NCBI GenBank assembly: GCA_965214545.1
Contig: OZ243950.1
Span: 1,478,440 to 1,542,439 of the forward strand
Direction: 5' to 3'
From: an uncultured candidatus Porisulfidus sp.
GTDB taxonomy: Bacteria > Pseudomonadota > Gammaproteobacteria > Poriferisulfidales > Poriferisulfidaceae
Length of the DNA stretch: 64,000 bases
Shown here: positions 61,469-64,000 of the stretch, piece by piece
Position numbering within the stretch: the stretch's first letter is position 1
How the letters are laid out: each line of letters starts with the position of its first letter
The notes under the pieces: model-generated
What the model was told of the DNA's origin: nothing
The model's database searches: none
The model's input: the letters and a program-made list of their open reading frames with translations, nothing else
Position numbers and translations under genes: made by a program

Positions 61469-61572
61469 TTCCCCGCCCGCCACCGGACCGGGGGGAAAAC
61501 CCAGGGAAAAGTGGCCGATTCGCCCCGGTCTGGCTGGGAAATGCATTTATAACCAATTGATTTAAAAGGATT

Positions 61573-61600
61573 AAAAATGGTCTAAAAAAACCGACCATTT
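61573..61600 (+). promoter_or_regulatory. Motif B palindrome, copy 3
   Basis: AAAAATGGTCTAAAAAAACCGACCATTTAT, ~65 bp upstream of the ATG at 61666. Confidence 0.5.
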
Positions 61601-61665
61601 ATTGTTTACTTTGCCGGGTTTTTGGGGTAGAACGAATACTTCGCCATGCTTCTGAGGAGAACCCC

Positions 61666-62313
61666 ATGGAAACTCGAAAAACATCCGGCGCCCGCTTATG
61701 GGTATGGCTGCTGGGCGGGCTGTTCCTGCTGTTGAGCGCAGCCTCAATCATCTACGGCGTGGCGCGAAGCTCCAATGGGGCCTTCACGTTTTCCGCCCCG
61801 GACGATCCGCCGCCGCCGCAAGGGTGGGTCCCCGCGGTGAATGCCGCCCCTGAAATCGATGTGGCGCAGTTGTCGGAATCCCTGGCGCAGGCCTTGGACC
61901 GCCATCTTGAACAGCGGCTGCTCGGCCTGCTTGAGGAACTGAAGGACGATCGGCTCATGCAGGCGCGGTTGATCGAGGAAAGGCAGGACGGATTGGCCGG
62001 CCAGATCGAAGCGCAGTCCTCGAAGCTGGCAGACCTCGGCCACCGGCTGGATTCGGTTGGGCAGGGGCTTGGCCGCTTGCTGGACAACCTCGAAGCTGAA
62101 ACGCGTCAGACCCCCAGGGGGCCGGCGTTTGTGTTTCGCGGCATTGAGATCTGGCACGGCGAGGTCTATGCGCTGCTTGAGCATGAGGGGAGAATCGTGC
62201 CGGTGCGAGAGGGAGAATCGCGGCTGGGCTGGAGAATTCATGCGATTGATCGCGACGGGCGGGCGCTGCATGTGGGCGACGGCATGCAGGAACACGTCCT
62301 GGAGGTGCAGTGA
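61666..62313 (+). CDS. Hypothetical membrane-anchored coiled-coil protein (215 aa)
   Basis: N-terminal TM LWVWLLGGLFLLLSAASIIYGV, then coiled coil (LEELKDDRLMQARLIEERQDGLAGQIEAQSSKLADLG). Confidence 0.5.
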   Translation: METRKTSGARLWVWLLGGLFLLLSAASIIYGVARSSNGAFTFSAPDDPPPPQGWVPAVNAAPEIDVAQLSESLAQALDRHLEQRLLGLLEELKDDRLMQARLIEERQDGLAGQIEAQSSKLADLGHRLDSVGQGLGRLLDNLEAETRQTPRGPAFVFRGIEIWHGEVYALLEHEGRIVPVREGESRLGWRIHAIDRDGRALHVGDGMQEHVLEVQ

Positions 62314-62314
62314 G

Positions 62315-62701
62315 ATGAACGGCAGATGGAATTGGAGGACCGCGTGGCTGGTGGTGCCCGCGGTTTTGGCCGGAGCCATTGCCTCCCGGGTCTATGACGT
62401 CCATGCGGCACGGGAGGAATCCAGCCGATGGCAGGAGACCGCGATGCACGCGCCCCGCTGGCTGGAATTGAGCGAGGAGGAATGGCGGCAGTATCAGACG
62501 TGGCGCAGCCTGGTCGGCAAGCCGCTGGCTGAAATGACCCCGTACGAAGTTCTGGGTATTTACACCGACGACCCGGAGCAACGGCGACGGTTTGCGCGGG
62601 AAAACGCCCGCTTCATGCTCGACTTCTATCGGCGGACGATGGAGTTCGAAACACTTTATCGTGAGGAATTAACACGGTTTTCAGACAAAAAGGCCCGATA
62701 A
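62315..62701 (+). CDS. Hypothetical membrane-anchored protein (128 aa)
   Basis: ATG 2 nt after the upstream stop. N-terminal TM WLVVPAVLAGAIAS. Confidence 0.45.
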   Translation: MNGRWNWRTAWLVVPAVLAGAIASRVYDVHAAREESSRWQETAMHAPRWLELSEEEWRQYQTWRSLVGKPLAEMTPYEVLGIYTDDPEQRRRFARENARFMLDFYRRTMEFETLYREELTRFSDKKAR

Positions 62702-62730
62702 CTTTACATAATTAAAAAAGCTTTACATTT
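62701..62730 (+). promoter_or_regulatory. Motif A, copy 3
   Basis: ACTTTACATAATTAAAAAAGCTTTACATTT. Confidence 0.45.
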
Positions 62731-62778
62731 CCCAATTCTTTACAAGAATATATCTTGATTATCAATATCTTAAATCGC

Positions 62779-62810
62779 AAAAAAATGGTCTAAAAAAACC
62801 GACCATTTTT
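62779..62810 (+). promoter_or_regulatory. Motif B palindrome, copy 4
   Basis: AAAAAAATGGTCTAAAAAAACCGACCATTTTT, ~110 bp upstream of the lipoprotein ATG. Confidence 0.5.
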
Positions 62811-62922
62811 CCTTGATTTTTGGAAAAAGTTGTTAGAGACTTTCGGGGGTGGCATCCCAAGGGACGGGGAGCCGCAGGGTCGTCTAGCTTTATGGCGACC
62901 CGCTCTTGCCCAGGAGGTTGGA

Positions 62923-63336
62923 ATGAAACATGCTGAATGGTTGATGGGTCCGATAGCCGCCCTGCTGGTGACGGGGTGCGGGGTGCTGCATCACGCGGTC
63001 CCGGTTTCGCAATCTCGGGAATCGAGCGGCGTCCCGCGTTCGAGGCTGGTCGATCATTCGGCATTTTCGCTGCCGGCCGCCAATTACCTGGTTCGCCCGG
63101 ATACCGGTGAGCGACAGGTGCTTGGGCAGTTGCTGCACGAACTGCAACTGGTCCGGCACTTGATTGACGACGCTTACGCCCGCCGCGACGAGCGGGCCCG
63201 GGTCCGGGTGGACTACGCGCGCCTGGCCGATGAATTCGACCGCATTGTCACCGGCTTGCGGCGCACCCTGACGGTCACCGAGACGGCCCCGCGCGACCGT
63301 CTCGACATCACCGGAGACTACCAGCTTTATGAGTGA
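62923..63336 (+). CDS. Lipoprotein; candidate first gene of an ICE/plasmid MPF-G-type conjugative transfer module (RAQPRD-family-like)
   Basis: GGAGG RBS. MKHAEWLMGPIAALLVTGCG lipobox. Followed by two small membrane proteins in the order seen in ICEclc/pKLC102-type T4SS modules. Confidence 0.4.
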   Translation: MKHAEWLMGPIAALLVTGCGVLHHAVPVSQSRESSGVPRSRLVDHSAFSLPAANYLVRPDTGERQVLGQLLHELQLVRHLIDDAYARRDERARVRVDYARLADEFDRIVTGLRRTLTVTETAPRDRLDITGDYQLYE

Positions 63337-63568
63337 TTCCATGCTGGGCCAGTTCGAGATCACTTCCGGCATTTCAGGCGAAGTGCTGGCGGAAGTGACG
63401 GCTGCGGCCTGCCTGCTGGCCGTGACCCTCTGGGTGTCCTGGGTCGCCCTCTCCAGCCTGCGGCAACTGCGCGACGAAACCCTCGCGGTCGGAGACGTCG
63501 CGTCCCGGATCCTTTGGGCCGGTCTGGTGTTCTGCATGGTGGTCGCCCTCATCGCTTTTGTGGAGTGA
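63329..63568 (+). CDS. Small two-TM membrane protein (ICE conjugative-region small membrane protein-like)
   Basis: 79 aa with two hydrophobic helices, overlapping start and stop with its neighbours. Confidence 0.4.
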   Translation: MSDSMLGQFEITSGISGEVLAEVTAAACLLAVTLWVSWVALSSLRQLRDETLAVGDVASRILWAGLVFCMVVALIAFVE

Positions 63569-63572
63569 GTTC

Positions 63573-63923
63573 ATGAAAAAAATTGCCTTCTTTCTGGCCT
63601 GCGTCCTGGCGGTCTGCCCGCATTTGGCCCTGGCCGTCAACACGCTGGACCTGCCGGTTTTCGATGGCGTCGCCGCTGATGCGTCCGATCCTTTCTCATT
63701 CATCAAGTCCGTCGCCATCACGGGCATGGCCCTGGTGTTCGGTCTGCTGGTCGTCGGGGCCTTTCTCGGCTACGGCGGCGGCCTGATCGCAAAACTCAAC
63801 CAGGCCCGCGTCAGGGGAGACTGGGGCAGCCTCGGGATCTATCTGGGCACCGGCCTGCTGGTGGTGATCATCATCGCCCTGATGGGCTACATGGGCGGGC
63901 AGATCCTGTCCGACTTCGAATGA
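63573..63923 (+). CDS. Conjugative pilin-like small membrane protein (signal peptide + 2 TM; TrbC/VirB2-like topology)
   Basis: MKKIAFFLACVLAVCPHLALA signal, then two long hydrophobic segments. ~117 aa. Confidence 0.4.
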   Translation: MKKIAFFLACVLAVCPHLALAVNTLDLPVFDGVAADASDPFSFIKSVAITGMALVFGLLVVGAFLGYGGGLIAKLNQARVRGDWGSLGIYLGTGLLVVIIIALMGYMGGQILSDFE

Positions 63924-64000
63924 CGCGGCCGGCTGCGCCCCTGGGGTCCGAGCCGCCCATGTTCCGGGGGCTCAGCGGCACCGAACTGACCGCGGCGATT
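63921..64000 (+). CDS. 5' end of the next conjugative-region gene; continues past window end
   Basis: MTRPAAPLGSEPPMFRGLSGTELTAAI.... The ATG overlaps the previous stop (ATGA). Confidence 0.35.

What the first reader, a model, noticed from the sequence alone, without database searches (positions are those of the whole stretch)
61470..64000. Window ends at the apparent border of an integrative conjugative element: AT-rich region, coiled-coil membrane gene pair, then a lipoprotein, a small membrane protein, a pilin-like protein and the next gene in MPF-G (ICEclc/pKLC102) order
After pgeF the GC content drops and motif B reappears. From 62923 the genes are short, translationally overlapping, and have the signal peptide or TM topology and order of the opening genes of GI-type T4SS modules: RAQPRD-family lipoprotein, small membrane protein, VirB2-like pilin, then a protein starting ...EPPMFRGLSGTELTAAI. 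If correct, the neighbouring DUF1640 regulon could be under ICE control. No integrase or tRNA is visible on this side, so this would be the non-integrase end or an internal part of the element.
Basis: partly seen in the sequence, partly recalled or inferred. Interest (0 to 1): 0.55.

Follow-up and report, generated by a model that had tools for sequence, protein, structure and literature searches.

The report
Domesticated conjugation-type secretion system in sponge symbionts
The window ends at the start of a 13-kb secretion-machine gene cluster descended from a conjugative element. In this group of small-genome sponge symbionts the cluster has no DNA-transfer or integration genes next to it and is inherited and conserved like an ordinary chromosomal operon.

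Summary
After pgeF (stop at 61468) GC drops to about 0.52, and to 0.41 at 62600-62900. The 24-nt motif B occurs exactly four times in the window against 0 expected. The short overlapping genes from 62923 are RAQPRD (Pfam 46 bits, above threshold), then weak but consistent DUF3262/TIGR03758 and DUF2976/TIGR03745 (pilin) matches, then the N-terminus of a TIGR03750 homologue.

The ICE reading is only partly right. The window's own downstream DNA could not be retrieved. In about 17 related loci (Ca. Porisulfidus and similar sponge-associated MAGs, chromosomes 1.6-2.6 Mb) the cluster continues through TIGR03746/03749/03752/03751, TraU, TraC/VirB4, TIGR03755 and TraG_N. It then stops after 13.1-13.4 kb at housekeeping genes.

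- No coupling protein, relaxase, integrase, tRNA or att repeats lie within 10 kb, in four different chromosomal contexts.
- The genes are intact with dN/dS 0.03-0.25.
- Their synonymous divergence and GC3 match the flanking core genes.

The "coiled-coil pair" (61666-62701) belongs to the module. It matches ICEclc orf73029 (PilP-like) and the N-terminal part of TIGR03759.

This is best read as a vertically inherited, MOB-less MPF-G type IV secretion or pilus system that shares a conserved operator-like motif with DUF1640 genes. Absence of a coupling protein genome-wide is untested.

The parts
61469..61665 (+). AT-rich intergenic region between pgeF and the first cluster gene. It contains motif B (61576-61599), followed by a candidate sigma-70 promoter (TTTACT 61605-61610, 17-nt spacer, TAGAAC 61628-61633) and a GAGGAG ribosome-binding site.
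   Evidence: GC is 0.52. Motif B is exact. Motif B and the GTAGAACC block are conserved at the same position in 14 related loci. The promoter hexamers are my reading of the sequence and are an inference.
61576..61599 (+). Motif B, copy 3: inverted repeat AAATGGTC-N10-GACCATTT, a candidate operator or activator site.
   Evidence: The arms are invariant across species whose genes have dS above 1, while the 10-nt spacer varies.
61666..62313 (+). g215: inner-membrane-anchored coiled-coil protein with a C-terminal PilP/GspC-HR-like beta domain. It is the positional and structural counterpart of ICEclc orf73029.
   Evidence: No Pfam or NCBIfam family matches. Only 30 homologues exist, all in sponge-type MAGs. 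The AF2 model has pLDDT 78, with TM 7-36, a helix at 66-146 and a beta domain at 156-213. The top Foldseek PDB hits are GspC-HR 3oss_C (TMt 0.78) and PilP 2y4y. ICEclc orf73029 is 216 aa and is described as a 'membrane anchoring PilP protein' (PMC10018362). dN/dS is 0.2-0.36.
62315..62701 (+). g128: small membrane-anchored protein homologous to the N-terminal part of TIGR03759 (ICEclc orf72295). It has no cysteines, so the thioredoxin function is not retained.
   Evidence: TIGR03759 matches at E 1.1e-7 over model positions 4-84 of 200, below the curated cutoff. It is 85% identical to the L001 orthologue with dN/dS 0.08-0.16.
62702..62922 (+). Regulatory intergenic region at the position where ICEclc carries IceB1, DUF2859, the T4CP IceD4, TIGR03747 and orf67800. 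It contains motif A direct repeats CTTTACA(T) (62701-62709, 62720-62728, 62738-62744), an IHF-like TATCAATATCTTA (62760-62772), motif B (62784-62807), TTTTTCCTTGATT (with a candidate -35), and a conserved structured leader with a hairpin at 62877-62901.
   Evidence: GC is 0.41. The consensus fold of the leader shows 6 pairs with compensatory changes. No Rfam family and no terminator were found. The ICEclc gene order comes from PMC10018362.
62923..63336 (+). RAQPRD-family lipoprotein (ICEclc orf67231 equivalent), the first gene of the main T4SS operon.
   Evidence: PF09686 scores 46.4 bits against a threshold of 23.1. TIGR01690 scores 44.1 bits against a cutoff of 50. The lipobox LVTGC is visible in the sequence.
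63329..63568 (+). TIGR03758/DUF3262-like inner-membrane protein with 2 TM helices (ICEclc orf67001 equivalent).
   Evidence: E is 0.007-0.02, below threshold. Nine of 10 orthologues hit DUF3262. Position and size match ICEclc orf67001, 77 aa.
63573..63923 (+). TIGR03745/DUF2976-like candidate pilin (IceB2/VirB2 analogue).
   Evidence: E is 9e-4 (Pfam) and 0.026 (NCBIfam), below threshold. All 11 orthologues hit DUF2976. It is 91% identical to L001 with dN/dS 0.04-0.13. A signal peptide and 2 TM helices are visible in the sequence.
63920..64000 (+). N-terminus of the TIGR03750/DUF3487 (VirB3-like) homologue, cut off by the window end.
   Evidence: MTRPAAPLGSEPPMFRGLSGTELTAAI aligns with L001 VMRPASPLGFEPPMFRGLSGTELTATI. 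That L001 protein matches TIGR03750 at E 8.8e-15.
49428..49451 (+). Motif B copy 1, 64 nt upstream of DUF1640/CCDC90-like gene 49515-50048 and preceded by motif A at 49345.
   Evidence: PF07798 E 2.6e-6, below threshold.
50292..50315 (+). Motif B copy 2, 64 nt upstream of DUF1640/CCDC90-like gene 50379-50813 and preceded by motif A at 50209 and 50228.
   Evidence: PF07798 E 5.1e-6, below threshold.

Best explanation
The window ends at the left edge of a compact MPF-G (GI-type, ICEclc-like) type IV secretion gene cluster of about 13.3 kb. The cluster has been domesticated in the chromosome of Ca. Porisulfidus-type sponge symbionts.

It descends from an ICEclc-like conjugative module. No coupling protein (IceD4/TraD), TIGR03747, lytic transglycosylase, PilL/IceB7, relaxase or integrase lies in or within about 10 kb of the cluster.

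It retains the envelope-spanning core:
- a PilP-like anchor (g215) and a TIGR03759 N-domain protein (g128);
- RAQPRD, TIGR03758, the IceB2-like pilin and a VirB3-like protein;
- VirB8/9/10 analogues and the TIGR03751 lipoprotein;
- TraU, VirB4/TraC, TIGR03755 and TraG_N.

It is inherited vertically and kept under purifying selection.

The most likely working (inferred, not shown) is a coupling-protein-independent machine driven by the VirB4 ATPase. That machine would assemble the highly conserved IceB2-type pilus and/or export periplasmic substrates for cell contact within the sponge. It would not perform conjugative DNA transfer.

The cluster is probably transcribed from two promoters, upstream of 61666 and of 62923. 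Each is preceded by the invariant palindrome AAATGGTC-N10-GACCATTT. The same palindrome precedes DUF1640/CCDC90-like membrane-protein genes, so one unidentified dimeric DNA-binding regulator probably co-controls them.
For: Shown:
- MPF-G family membership and order in the window and in syntenic relatives. Relatives carry TIGR03746 (150 bits), TIGR03756 (261 bits) and TIGR03744 (845 bits), all above the curated cutoffs. They also carry TIGR03749/03750/03751/03752/03755 and TraG_N PF07916 (89 bits).
- The same cluster occurs in about 17 loci from sponge-type MAGs. It ends at housekeeping genes in four different contexts:
  - pgeF | cluster | rhodanese-purH-groESL;
  - msrA | cluster | gshA;
  - msrA | cluster | rimP-nusA-infB;
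  - sat | cluster | ndk-hisS.
  This is documented.
- The island is 13.1-13.4 kb long with no flanking direct repeats above chance, and no tRNA occurs in 16 loci.
- ORFs are intact with conserved lengths.
- dN/dS is 0.03-0.25, like bamD, nadE and purH. dS of the T4SS genes (window vs L001: 0.41-1.07) equals dS of the flanks (0.69-0.95).
- GC3 of the T4SS genes follows each host genome, from 0.6 to 0.99.
- The nearest outgroup TraC (47% identity) sits in an ICE-like island with an integrase next to TraG_N. This indicates that the compact form is derived.
- Mapping onto the ICEclc table shows which parts are missing.
- The g215 fold is PilP/GspC-HR-like.
- Motif B arms are invariant while the spacer varies. 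Motif B also lies about 95 nt upstream of DUF1640 genes in other Porisulfidus-like contigs.

Background: MOB-less T4SS are common in small genomes and are interpreted as exaptations (PMC3158045, PMC3548315).
Against: - The window's own DNA beyond 64000 was not retrievable. The downstream structure is inferred from relatives with at most 81% nucleotide identity.
- Absence of a coupling protein and relaxase is shown only within about 10 kb of the cluster, not genome-wide. They could act in trans.
- Two components essential for ICEclc transfer, PilL/IceB7 and TIGR03747, are missing, so whether the machine can assemble is uncertain.
- One locus (L007) carries an in-frame stop in the VirB8 analogue.
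- No expression, pilus or substrate data exist.
- The promoter hexamers and the regulator are inferences.
- The pilin and TIGR03758 assignments are below the curated thresholds.
Confidence: 0.72

Rival explanations
1. The window shows the border of a bona fide, still mobile ICEclc/pKLC102-type ICE. The coupling protein, relaxase and integrase would lie further downstream in this particular genome.
For: The gene families and their order are those of MPF-G ICEs. There are AT-rich junctions. The window's own downstream DNA is unseen. The nearest outgroup locus, L137, is ICE-like and has an integrase.
Against: In all of about 17 related loci the cluster stops after about 13.3 kb at core genes, and no T4CP, relaxase or integrase lies within 10 kb. 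The left junction (pgeF | g215) is identical in the window and in more than 10 species. dS and GC3 equal those of the flanking genes. There are no att repeats or tRNA. The slot where the T4CP sits in ICEclc is a 221-bp regulatory spacer in the window itself.
Confidence: 0.05
2. The cluster is a functional conjugative mating-pair-formation module that works with a coupling protein and relaxase encoded elsewhere in the chromosome. This would be a split conjugation system, or a helper that mobilises other islands.
For: Absence was tested only within 10 kb. T4SS that lack neighbouring MOB genes can sometimes mobilise DNA in trans (PMC3158045). TraG_N, TraU and TIGR03755, which are mating-pair functions in F-like and ICEclc systems, are retained.
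Against: In ICEclc-type elements the T4CP lies inside the MPF operon, and here it has been cleanly removed. Genomes of 1.6-2.6 Mb with a conserved cluster in four contexts never show it adjacent. TIGR03747 and PilL, both essential for ICEclc transfer, are also missing.
Confidence: 0.15
3. The cluster is an inactive, decaying remnant of an old ICE that has simply not yet been deleted.
For: Several components essential in ICEclc have been lost. There is one in-frame stop in L007.
Against: 16-17 genes remain intact with unchanged lengths across species whose dS exceeds 1. dN/dS is 0.03-0.25, equal to housekeeping genes. The pilin is 87-91% identical across the core clade. Promoter, operator and leader elements are conserved. 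These genomes are reduced (1.6-2.6 Mb), so useless DNA should be lost.
Confidence: 0.05

Closest known systems
ICEclc T4SS of Pseudomonas putida/knackmussii (IceB system; MPF-G), characterised in PMC10018362
   Same: It shares the families RAQPRD, TIGR03758, TIGR03745 (IceB2 pilin), DUF3487/TIGR03750, TIGR03746 (IceB8), TIGR03749 (IceB9), TIGR03752 (IceB10), TIGR03751, TIGR03744 (IceB4), TraU, TIGR03755, a small 3-TM protein and TraG_N. It also has the upstream pair of a PilP-like 216-aa protein plus TIGR03759. Both have a promoter directly upstream of the RAQPRD gene.
   Different: The following are missing here: PilL/IceB7, IceB1, DUF2859, the coupling protein IceD4, TIGR03747, orf67800, dsbA, radC and DUF1525. 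TraU has moved upstream of TraC and is flanked by two new small ORFs. TIGR03759 is reduced to its N-terminal part. There is no relaxase, integrase or att sites. The cluster is vertically inherited and has a genus-specific operator motif.
pKLC102/PAPI-1 and ICEHin1056 (archetypes of MPF-G / GI-type T4SS)
   Same: They have the same MPF-G gene families and general order, and a VirB4 of the TIGR03744 clade.
   Different: Those are mobile elements of about 60-100 kb inserted at tRNA genes, with a MOBH relaxase, TraD, an integrase and often a type IVb pilus cluster. Such a pilus cluster is seen in the outgroup locus L137. None of these features accompanies the Porisulfidus cluster.
MOB-less / exapted T4SS, such as Bordetella Ptl and Brucella VirB (no coupling protein), Helicobacter ComB (DNA uptake), and the MOB-less MPF-F T4SS of Protochlamydia (named in PMC3548315)
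   Same: These are chromosomal, lack a relaxase (and in Ptl and ComB a coupling protein), occur in host-associated bacteria with small genomes, and are maintained by selection. This is the general pattern described in PMC3158045 and PMC3548315.
   Different: The experimentally characterised cases are MPF-T or MPF-I (protein delivery) or MPF-T-like ComB. According to PMC3548315, only MPF-T and MPF-I have been shown experimentally to deliver proteins. The present system is MPF-G, and no substrate or function is known for it.

Membership tests
MPF-G (GI-type) type IV secretion system | RAQPRD-family protein (PF09686/TIGR01690) at the head of the operon | tested here: met
   Window 62923-63336 scores 46.4 bits on PF09686 against a threshold of 23.1. 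TIGR01690 scores 44.1 bits, just below its cutoff of 50.
MPF-G (GI-type) type IV secretion system | TIGR03758/DUF3262 and TIGR03745/DUF2976 (IceB2 pilin) small membrane proteins next in order | tested here: inconclusive
   E-values are 0.007-0.02 and 9e-4 to 0.026, both below the curated thresholds. All 11 and 9 of 10 orthologues match the same families over their full length, and order, size and topology match ICEclc.
MPF-G (GI-type) type IV secretion system | VirB4 ATPase of the TIGR03744 (TraC PFL_4706) clade, plus TIGR03746/03749/03752/03751/03756/03755 and TraG_N | tested here: met
   This is met in syntenic relatives only, because the region lies beyond the window end. TIGR03744 scores 845 bits, TIGR03746 150 and TIGR03756 261, all above their cutoffs. 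The other families give E-values of 1e-15 to 1e-78, and TraG_N scores 89 bits.
MPF-G (GI-type) type IV secretion system | PilL/IceB7 (TIGR03748) outer-membrane lipoprotein and TIGR03747/DUF4400, both essential in ICEclc | tested here: not met
   No such gene occurs in the cluster or within 10 kb in the loci whose flanks were annotated (L001, L002, L006, L012, L015, L138-L140). In the window, pgeF directly precedes g215 and a 221-bp spacer precedes RAQPRD.
Integrative conjugative element (ICEclc/pKLC102 family) | Type IV coupling protein (TraD/IceD4, TIGR03743) | tested here: not met
   It is absent from the cluster and from 10 kb on each side in about 17 related loci, and from the ICEclc-equivalent slot in the window. 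It was not tested genome-wide.
Integrative conjugative element (ICEclc/pKLC102 family) | MOBH relaxase (TraI, TIGR03760) | tested here: not met
   No relaxase family occurs among the called genes within 10 kb in the relatives (same calls). It was not tested genome-wide.
Integrative conjugative element (ICEclc/pKLC102 family) | Integrase, and insertion at a tRNA or other att site with flanking direct repeats | tested here: not met
   There is no tRNA in the window or in 16 loci. The longest flanking direct repeats are 8-13 nt, no better than the shuffled controls. No integrase flanks the cluster, whereas the outgroup L137 has one.
Integrative conjugative element (ICEclc/pKLC102 family) | Signs of horizontal mobility: patchy presence, and composition or divergence different from the host core | tested here: not met
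   dS of the T4SS genes equals dS of the flanking core genes. GC3 tracks each host genome. The junction is the same in more than 10 species.
MOB-less (exapted) T4SS in the sense of Guglielmini et al. 2011 | A VirB4-containing cluster with no relaxase within about 60 ORFs | tested here: inconclusive
   About 10 ORFs were checked on each side in the relatives. About 17 kb upstream in the window is annotated as housekeeping. The full 60-ORF radius and the rest of the genome were not scanned.

The most novel reading that the evidence does not exclude
A GI-type (MPF-G) type IV secretion system, a class so far known only as the transfer machine of ICEs, has been exapted. It would now be a core, coupling-protein-independent pilus or secretion apparatus of an entire lineage of reduced-genome sponge symbionts. 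It would also have been placed under a lineage-specific regulator that co-controls DUF1640/CCDC90-like membrane proteins, making it a symbiosis organelle rather than a mobile element.
Probability: 0.45. Interest if true: 0.7.

Novelty: new variant of a known kind. Interest (0 to 1): 0.55.

Why it matters
MPF-G systems are described as conjugation machines of ICEs, and protein-delivery or other exapted T4SS have been shown experimentally only for MPF-T and MPF-I (PMC3548315).

A compact MPF-G cluster with no coupling protein, relaxase or integrase nearby would be a natural minimal version of this poorly understood machine. It is kept intact under purifying selection in at least a dozen species of 1.6-2.6 Mb sponge symbionts. 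It shows which ICEclc components are dispensable for whatever the core machine does.

It also gives a concrete candidate for a host- or neighbour-contact structure in abundant, uncultured sponge symbionts.

For annotation, it is a warning. These genes will be auto-labelled "integrating conjugative element protein", and the locus will be called an ICE, although it is not mobile.

Tried and rejected
- Exact look-ups of the window's own proteins, to extend the window, failed. The RAQPRD protein and the 100%-identical g215 entry P0001 (on a 1,853,631-bp contig) are not on record for contig retrieval.
- Listing the TraC cluster members did not reveal that contig. The window's own downstream sequence therefore stayed out of reach.
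- A tblastn of g215 against PLSDB plasmids gave no match.
- Rfam and the terminator scan of 61300-64000 found nothing. I rejected motif B as an intrinsic terminator or known RNA. The arms are invariant rather than covarying and the stem is AT-rich, which argues for protein-DNA recognition.
- I rejected a sigma-54 promoter reading of motif B, because the GG/GC spacing does not fit (reading of the sequence).
- The metagenome scan with the motif B arms returned mostly chance AT-rich hairpins from unrelated environments. Only L021, L046/L079, L071 and L090 were relevant.
- A search for attL/attR direct repeats around the island found nothing above the shuffled controls.
- Literature searches for Porisulfidus T4SS or MOB-less MPF-G in sponge symbionts found no description.
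- I could not devise a way, with these tools, to test for a coupling protein or relaxase elsewhere in the Porisulfidus chromosomes.

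
Full report
**1. Observation**

The descriptive part of the finding is correct.
- pgeF ends at 61468. By synteny and 73% identity it is orthologous to a PF02578 gene in relatives.
- GC falls from about 0.70 to 0.52 at 61400-61700, and to 0.41 at 62600-62900.
- The 24-mer AATGGTCTAAAAAAACCGACCATT ("motif B") occurs exactly four times in the 64-kb window, always on the + strand. 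The positions are 49428, 50292, 61576 and 62784. None is expected by chance.
- On the + strand lie six ORFs:
  - 61666-62313 (215 aa);
  - 62315-62701 (128 aa);
  - 62923-63336 (137 aa, lipobox LVTGC);
  - 63329-63568 (79 aa);
  - 63573-63923 (116 aa);
  - 63920-64000, cut by the window end.
- The last four are overlapping or nearly abutting.
- There is no tRNA in the window.

**2. Family assignments in the window**

- The 137-aa lipoprotein is a RAQPRD protein. PF09686 scores 46.4 bits against a threshold of 23.1. TIGR01690 scores 44 bits against a cutoff of 50.
- The 79-aa and 116-aa proteins give weak matches to DUF3262/TIGR03758 and DUF2976/TIGR03745. DUF2976 was the only Pfam match of the 116-aa protein; DUF3262 was the best of four weak Pfam matches of the 79-aa protein.
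- Scanning orthologues from 10-11 species one by one, all 11 hit DUF2976 and 9 of 10 hit DUF3262.
- The truncated last ORF (MTRPAAPLGSEPPMFRGLSGTELTAAI) aligns with the N-terminus of the L001 orthologue, which matches TIGR03750/DUF3487 at E 9e-15.

**3. Where the window comes from and what lies downstream**

The 215-aa protein has only 30 homologues in 5.8 billion proteins. All are unnamed and come from gammaproteobacterial MAGs. The identical entry sits on a 1,853,631-bp contig that could not be fetched.

Relatives could be fetched. They show the same neighbourhood as the window: recG-zapD-coaE-pilD-GSDH-nadE-bamD-rluD-pgeF, then the 215-aa and 128-aa genes and RAQPRD.

Downstream they carry the following:

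| Gene or family | Score |
|---|---|
| TIGR03750 | E 8.8e-15 |
| TIGR03746 | 150 bits, above cutoff |
| TIGR03749 | E 3.9e-39 |
| TIGR03752 | E 1e-53 |
| TIGR03751 | E 1.8e-15 |
| 95-aa ORF | no family |
| TIGR03756/TraU | 261 bits, above cutoff |
| 81-aa ORF | no family |
| TIGR03744 TraC/VirB4 | 845 bits, above cutoff |
| TIGR03755 | E 5.9e-19 (truncated copy) |

A scan of GTDB species representatives with TraC returned 12 loci. All are from "Candidatus Porisulfidus", "uncultured Chromatiales" or Gammaproteobacteria MAGs, with complete chromosomes of 1.57-1.88 Mb. Porisulfidus is cited as a known sponge symbiont (PMC12988363). None of the loci is the window's own genome, and the best nucleotide identity is 81%.

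**4. The cluster ends quickly and lacks the DNA-transfer module**

In L006 (chromosome OZ241993.1) TraC is followed by TIGR03755, a 123-aa ORF, TraG_N (PF07916, 89 bits) and a DUF1640/CCDC90-like gene. Next come rhodanese, purH, groES, groEL and ndk.

A tblastn table shows the cluster and both flanks to be collinear in L005-L011, L014 and L016. More distant relatives (TraC 67-70% identical) carry the same compact cluster in other housekeeping contexts:
- L012: msrA | cluster | gshA.
- L138: msrA | cluster | rimP-nusA-infB.
- L015 and L139: sat | cluster | ndk-hisS-bamB-der.
- L140: pgeF | cluster | IS110, rhodanese-purH-groESL.

In none of about 17 loci is there a coupling protein, relaxase or integrase within 10 kb. 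The island measures 13.1-13.4 kb in seven loci, and its flanking direct repeats are no longer than in shuffled controls. No tRNA was found in 16 loci.

The closest TraC outside this clade is only 47% identical. It lies in an ICE-like island with type IVb pilus genes, DUF1525, cargo genes and an integrase next to TraG_N. The next closest is a Serratia ICE at 37% identity. The compact form is therefore derived from an ICE-like ancestor.

**5. Vertical inheritance and selection**

- All cluster ORFs are intact with nearly identical lengths across species. The single exception is an in-frame stop in the VirB8 analogue of L007.
- Pairwise dN/dS is 0.03-0.25 for the T4SS genes. The pilin is at 0.04-0.13, TraC at 0.06-0.08 and TraG_N at 0.03.
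- These values are the same as for bamD (0.10), nadE (0.10) and purH (0.07).
- Synonymous divergence of the T4SS genes between the window and L001 is 0.41-1.07. For the flanking bamD, nadE and pgeF it is 0.69-0.95.
- GC3 of the cluster genes follows each host. It is 0.71-0.83 in the window, about 0.65 in L001 and 0.85-0.99 in L015.
- These results are the opposite of what a recently acquired or mobile element would show.

**6. Comparison with ICEclc**

The functional dissection of the ICEclc T4SS (PMC10018362) gives this gene order:

PilL/IceB7 - orf73029 (216 aa, no family, "membrane anchoring PilP protein" by structure, non-essential) - TIGR03759 - IceB1 - DUF2859 - IceD4 (coupling protein) - TIGR03747 - orf67800 - RAQPRD - TIGR03758 - IceB2 - DUF3487 - IceB8 - IceB9 - IceB10 - TIGR03751 - IceB4 - dsbA - radC - DUF1525 - IceU - TIGR03755 - orf55120 - TraG_N.

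An AlphaFold model of the 215-aa window protein (pLDDT 78) has three parts: a TM helix at 7-36, an 80-residue helix, and a six-stranded C-terminal domain. Its best PDB matches are the GspC HR domain (3oss_C, TMt 0.78) and PilP (2y4y and others). The Foldseek E-values are weak (0.02-0.3), but the top nine hits are consistent.

The "coiled-coil pair" 61666-62701 is therefore the orf73029/TIGR03759 pair of the module, and it travels with the cluster in two of the contexts.

Relative to ICEclc the Porisulfidus cluster lacks:
- PilL/IceB7;
- IceB1;
- DUF2859;
- the coupling protein IceD4;
- TIGR03747;
- orf67800;
- the dsbA-radC-DUF1525 block.

TraU has moved in front of TraC. In the window, the slot of the coupling-protein block is the 221-bp AT-rich spacer 62702-62922.

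**7. Regulatory elements**

Both cluster promoters carry motif B. Across species the arms AAATGGTC and GACCATTT are invariant. The 10-nt spacer varies, for example TAAAAAAACC, AAAAAAATCT, AGGTTGTCCT and GGGAAATTCA. This favours recognition by a dimeric DNA-binding protein over an RNA hairpin. No terminator or Rfam family was found.

Motif B abuts a -35-like hexamer:
- TTTACT-17-TAGAAC before 61666;
- TTTTTCCTTGNN before 62923 and before the DUF1640 genes.

These hexamers are my reading of the sequence and are an inference.

Upstream of 62923, and of both DUF1640 genes, lies motif A. It consists of two or three direct repeats of CTTTACA(T).

In other Porisulfidus-like contigs (L021, L046/L079, L090) the same palindrome followed by TTTTTCCTTG lies about 95 nt upstream of PF07798 (DUF1640/CCDC90-like) genes. 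A further DUF1640 paralogue closes the cluster in several species.

The shared regulon is therefore real. Which partner "controls" the other is unknown, and no regulator gene was identified.

Between motif B and the RAQPRD start codon there is a conserved leader with hairpins (window 62877-62901). Six pairs in it show compensatory changes.

**8. Interpretation**

The best-supported reading is a domesticated, MOB-less MPF-G T4SS. This is a new variant of the known phenomenon of T4SS exaptation in small host-associated genomes (PMC3158045, PMC3548315).

The mechanism is inferred, not shown. A VirB4-powered envelope complex would assemble the very conserved IceB2-type pilin and/or export periplasmic substrates without a coupling protein. 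It would be co-regulated with DUF1640 membrane proteins.

The main uncertainties are:
- the window's own downstream DNA was not seen;
- a coupling protein and relaxase elsewhere in the genome cannot be excluded;
- two components essential in ICEclc are missing;
- there are no expression or functional data.

I found no description of this system in the searchable literature. That search covers open-access papers only.

Noticed in passing
window 49345-49451, 50209-50315, 62701-62807; also L021:11049, L046:3044, L079:151, L090:2655: A composite upstream element precedes DUF1640/CCDC90-like genes and the RAQPRD operon. It consists of motif A direct repeats (CTTTACAT, spaced about 19-21 nt), a TTATCAAT block and motif B followed by TTTTTCCTTG. 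Motif B arms are invariant across species while the spacer varies. The binding factor is unknown.
   Followed up: partly
window 62808-62922 (hairpin 62877-62901); homologous leaders in L001-L013 and L138: The 5' leader of the RAQPRD operon is conserved and predicted to form two hairpins. Six base pairs show compensatory changes across 12 species. No Rfam family matches. It could be a cis-regulatory RNA for the T4SS operon.
   Followed up: partly
L006:16236-16649; also L005, L008-L010, L014 and L140:17637-18104: A third DUF1640/CCDC90-like paralogue sits directly after TraG_N at the right end of the T4SS cluster in several species. In L006 it has no motif B upstream. L011 has a motif B-like site at 16193 in the same position.
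   Followed up: partly
window 27000-29200: This is a low-GC islet with small genes: an XRE-type HTH protein, an excisionase/MerR-like HTH protein (27514-28077, minus strand), a DUF4065/SocA-like protein (28260-28697) and others. An AT-rich upstream region has TTTACAT repeats at about 28131 (minus strand). It may be a small accessory or toxin-antitoxin-like insertion unrelated to the T4SS.
   Followed up: no
L007:5290-5922: There is an in-frame stop at codon 39 of the TIGR03746 (VirB8-like) gene in one MAG (CAZRSJ010000001.1). It is either an assembly error or a real inactivation, and it is the only disrupted cluster gene seen.
   Followed up: partly
L140:16498-17544: An IS110-family transposase is inserted between TraG_N and the rhodanese-purH-groESL flank in a 2.0-Mb relative. 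This shows that the right junction can accept insertions while the cluster itself stays intact.
   Followed up: no
L137 (ENA ERZ25084491, 3.5-Mb contig), 1-22844: This is the nearest outgroup (TraC 47% identical). It is an ICE-like MPF-G island with type IVb pilus genes (PilS, T2SSE/F, prepilin peptidase) upstream, cargo genes inserted between TraU and TIGR03755, and an integrase after TraG_N. It is a plausible model of the ancestral state.
   Followed up: partly
window 49515-50048 and 50379-50813: The two tandem DUF1640-like paralogues have near-identical N-termini and C-terminal TM anchors. They differ by internal coiled-coil repeat units (LRAEFRAGLADLR x2 in the first), which suggests repeat expansion or contraction.
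   Followed up: no
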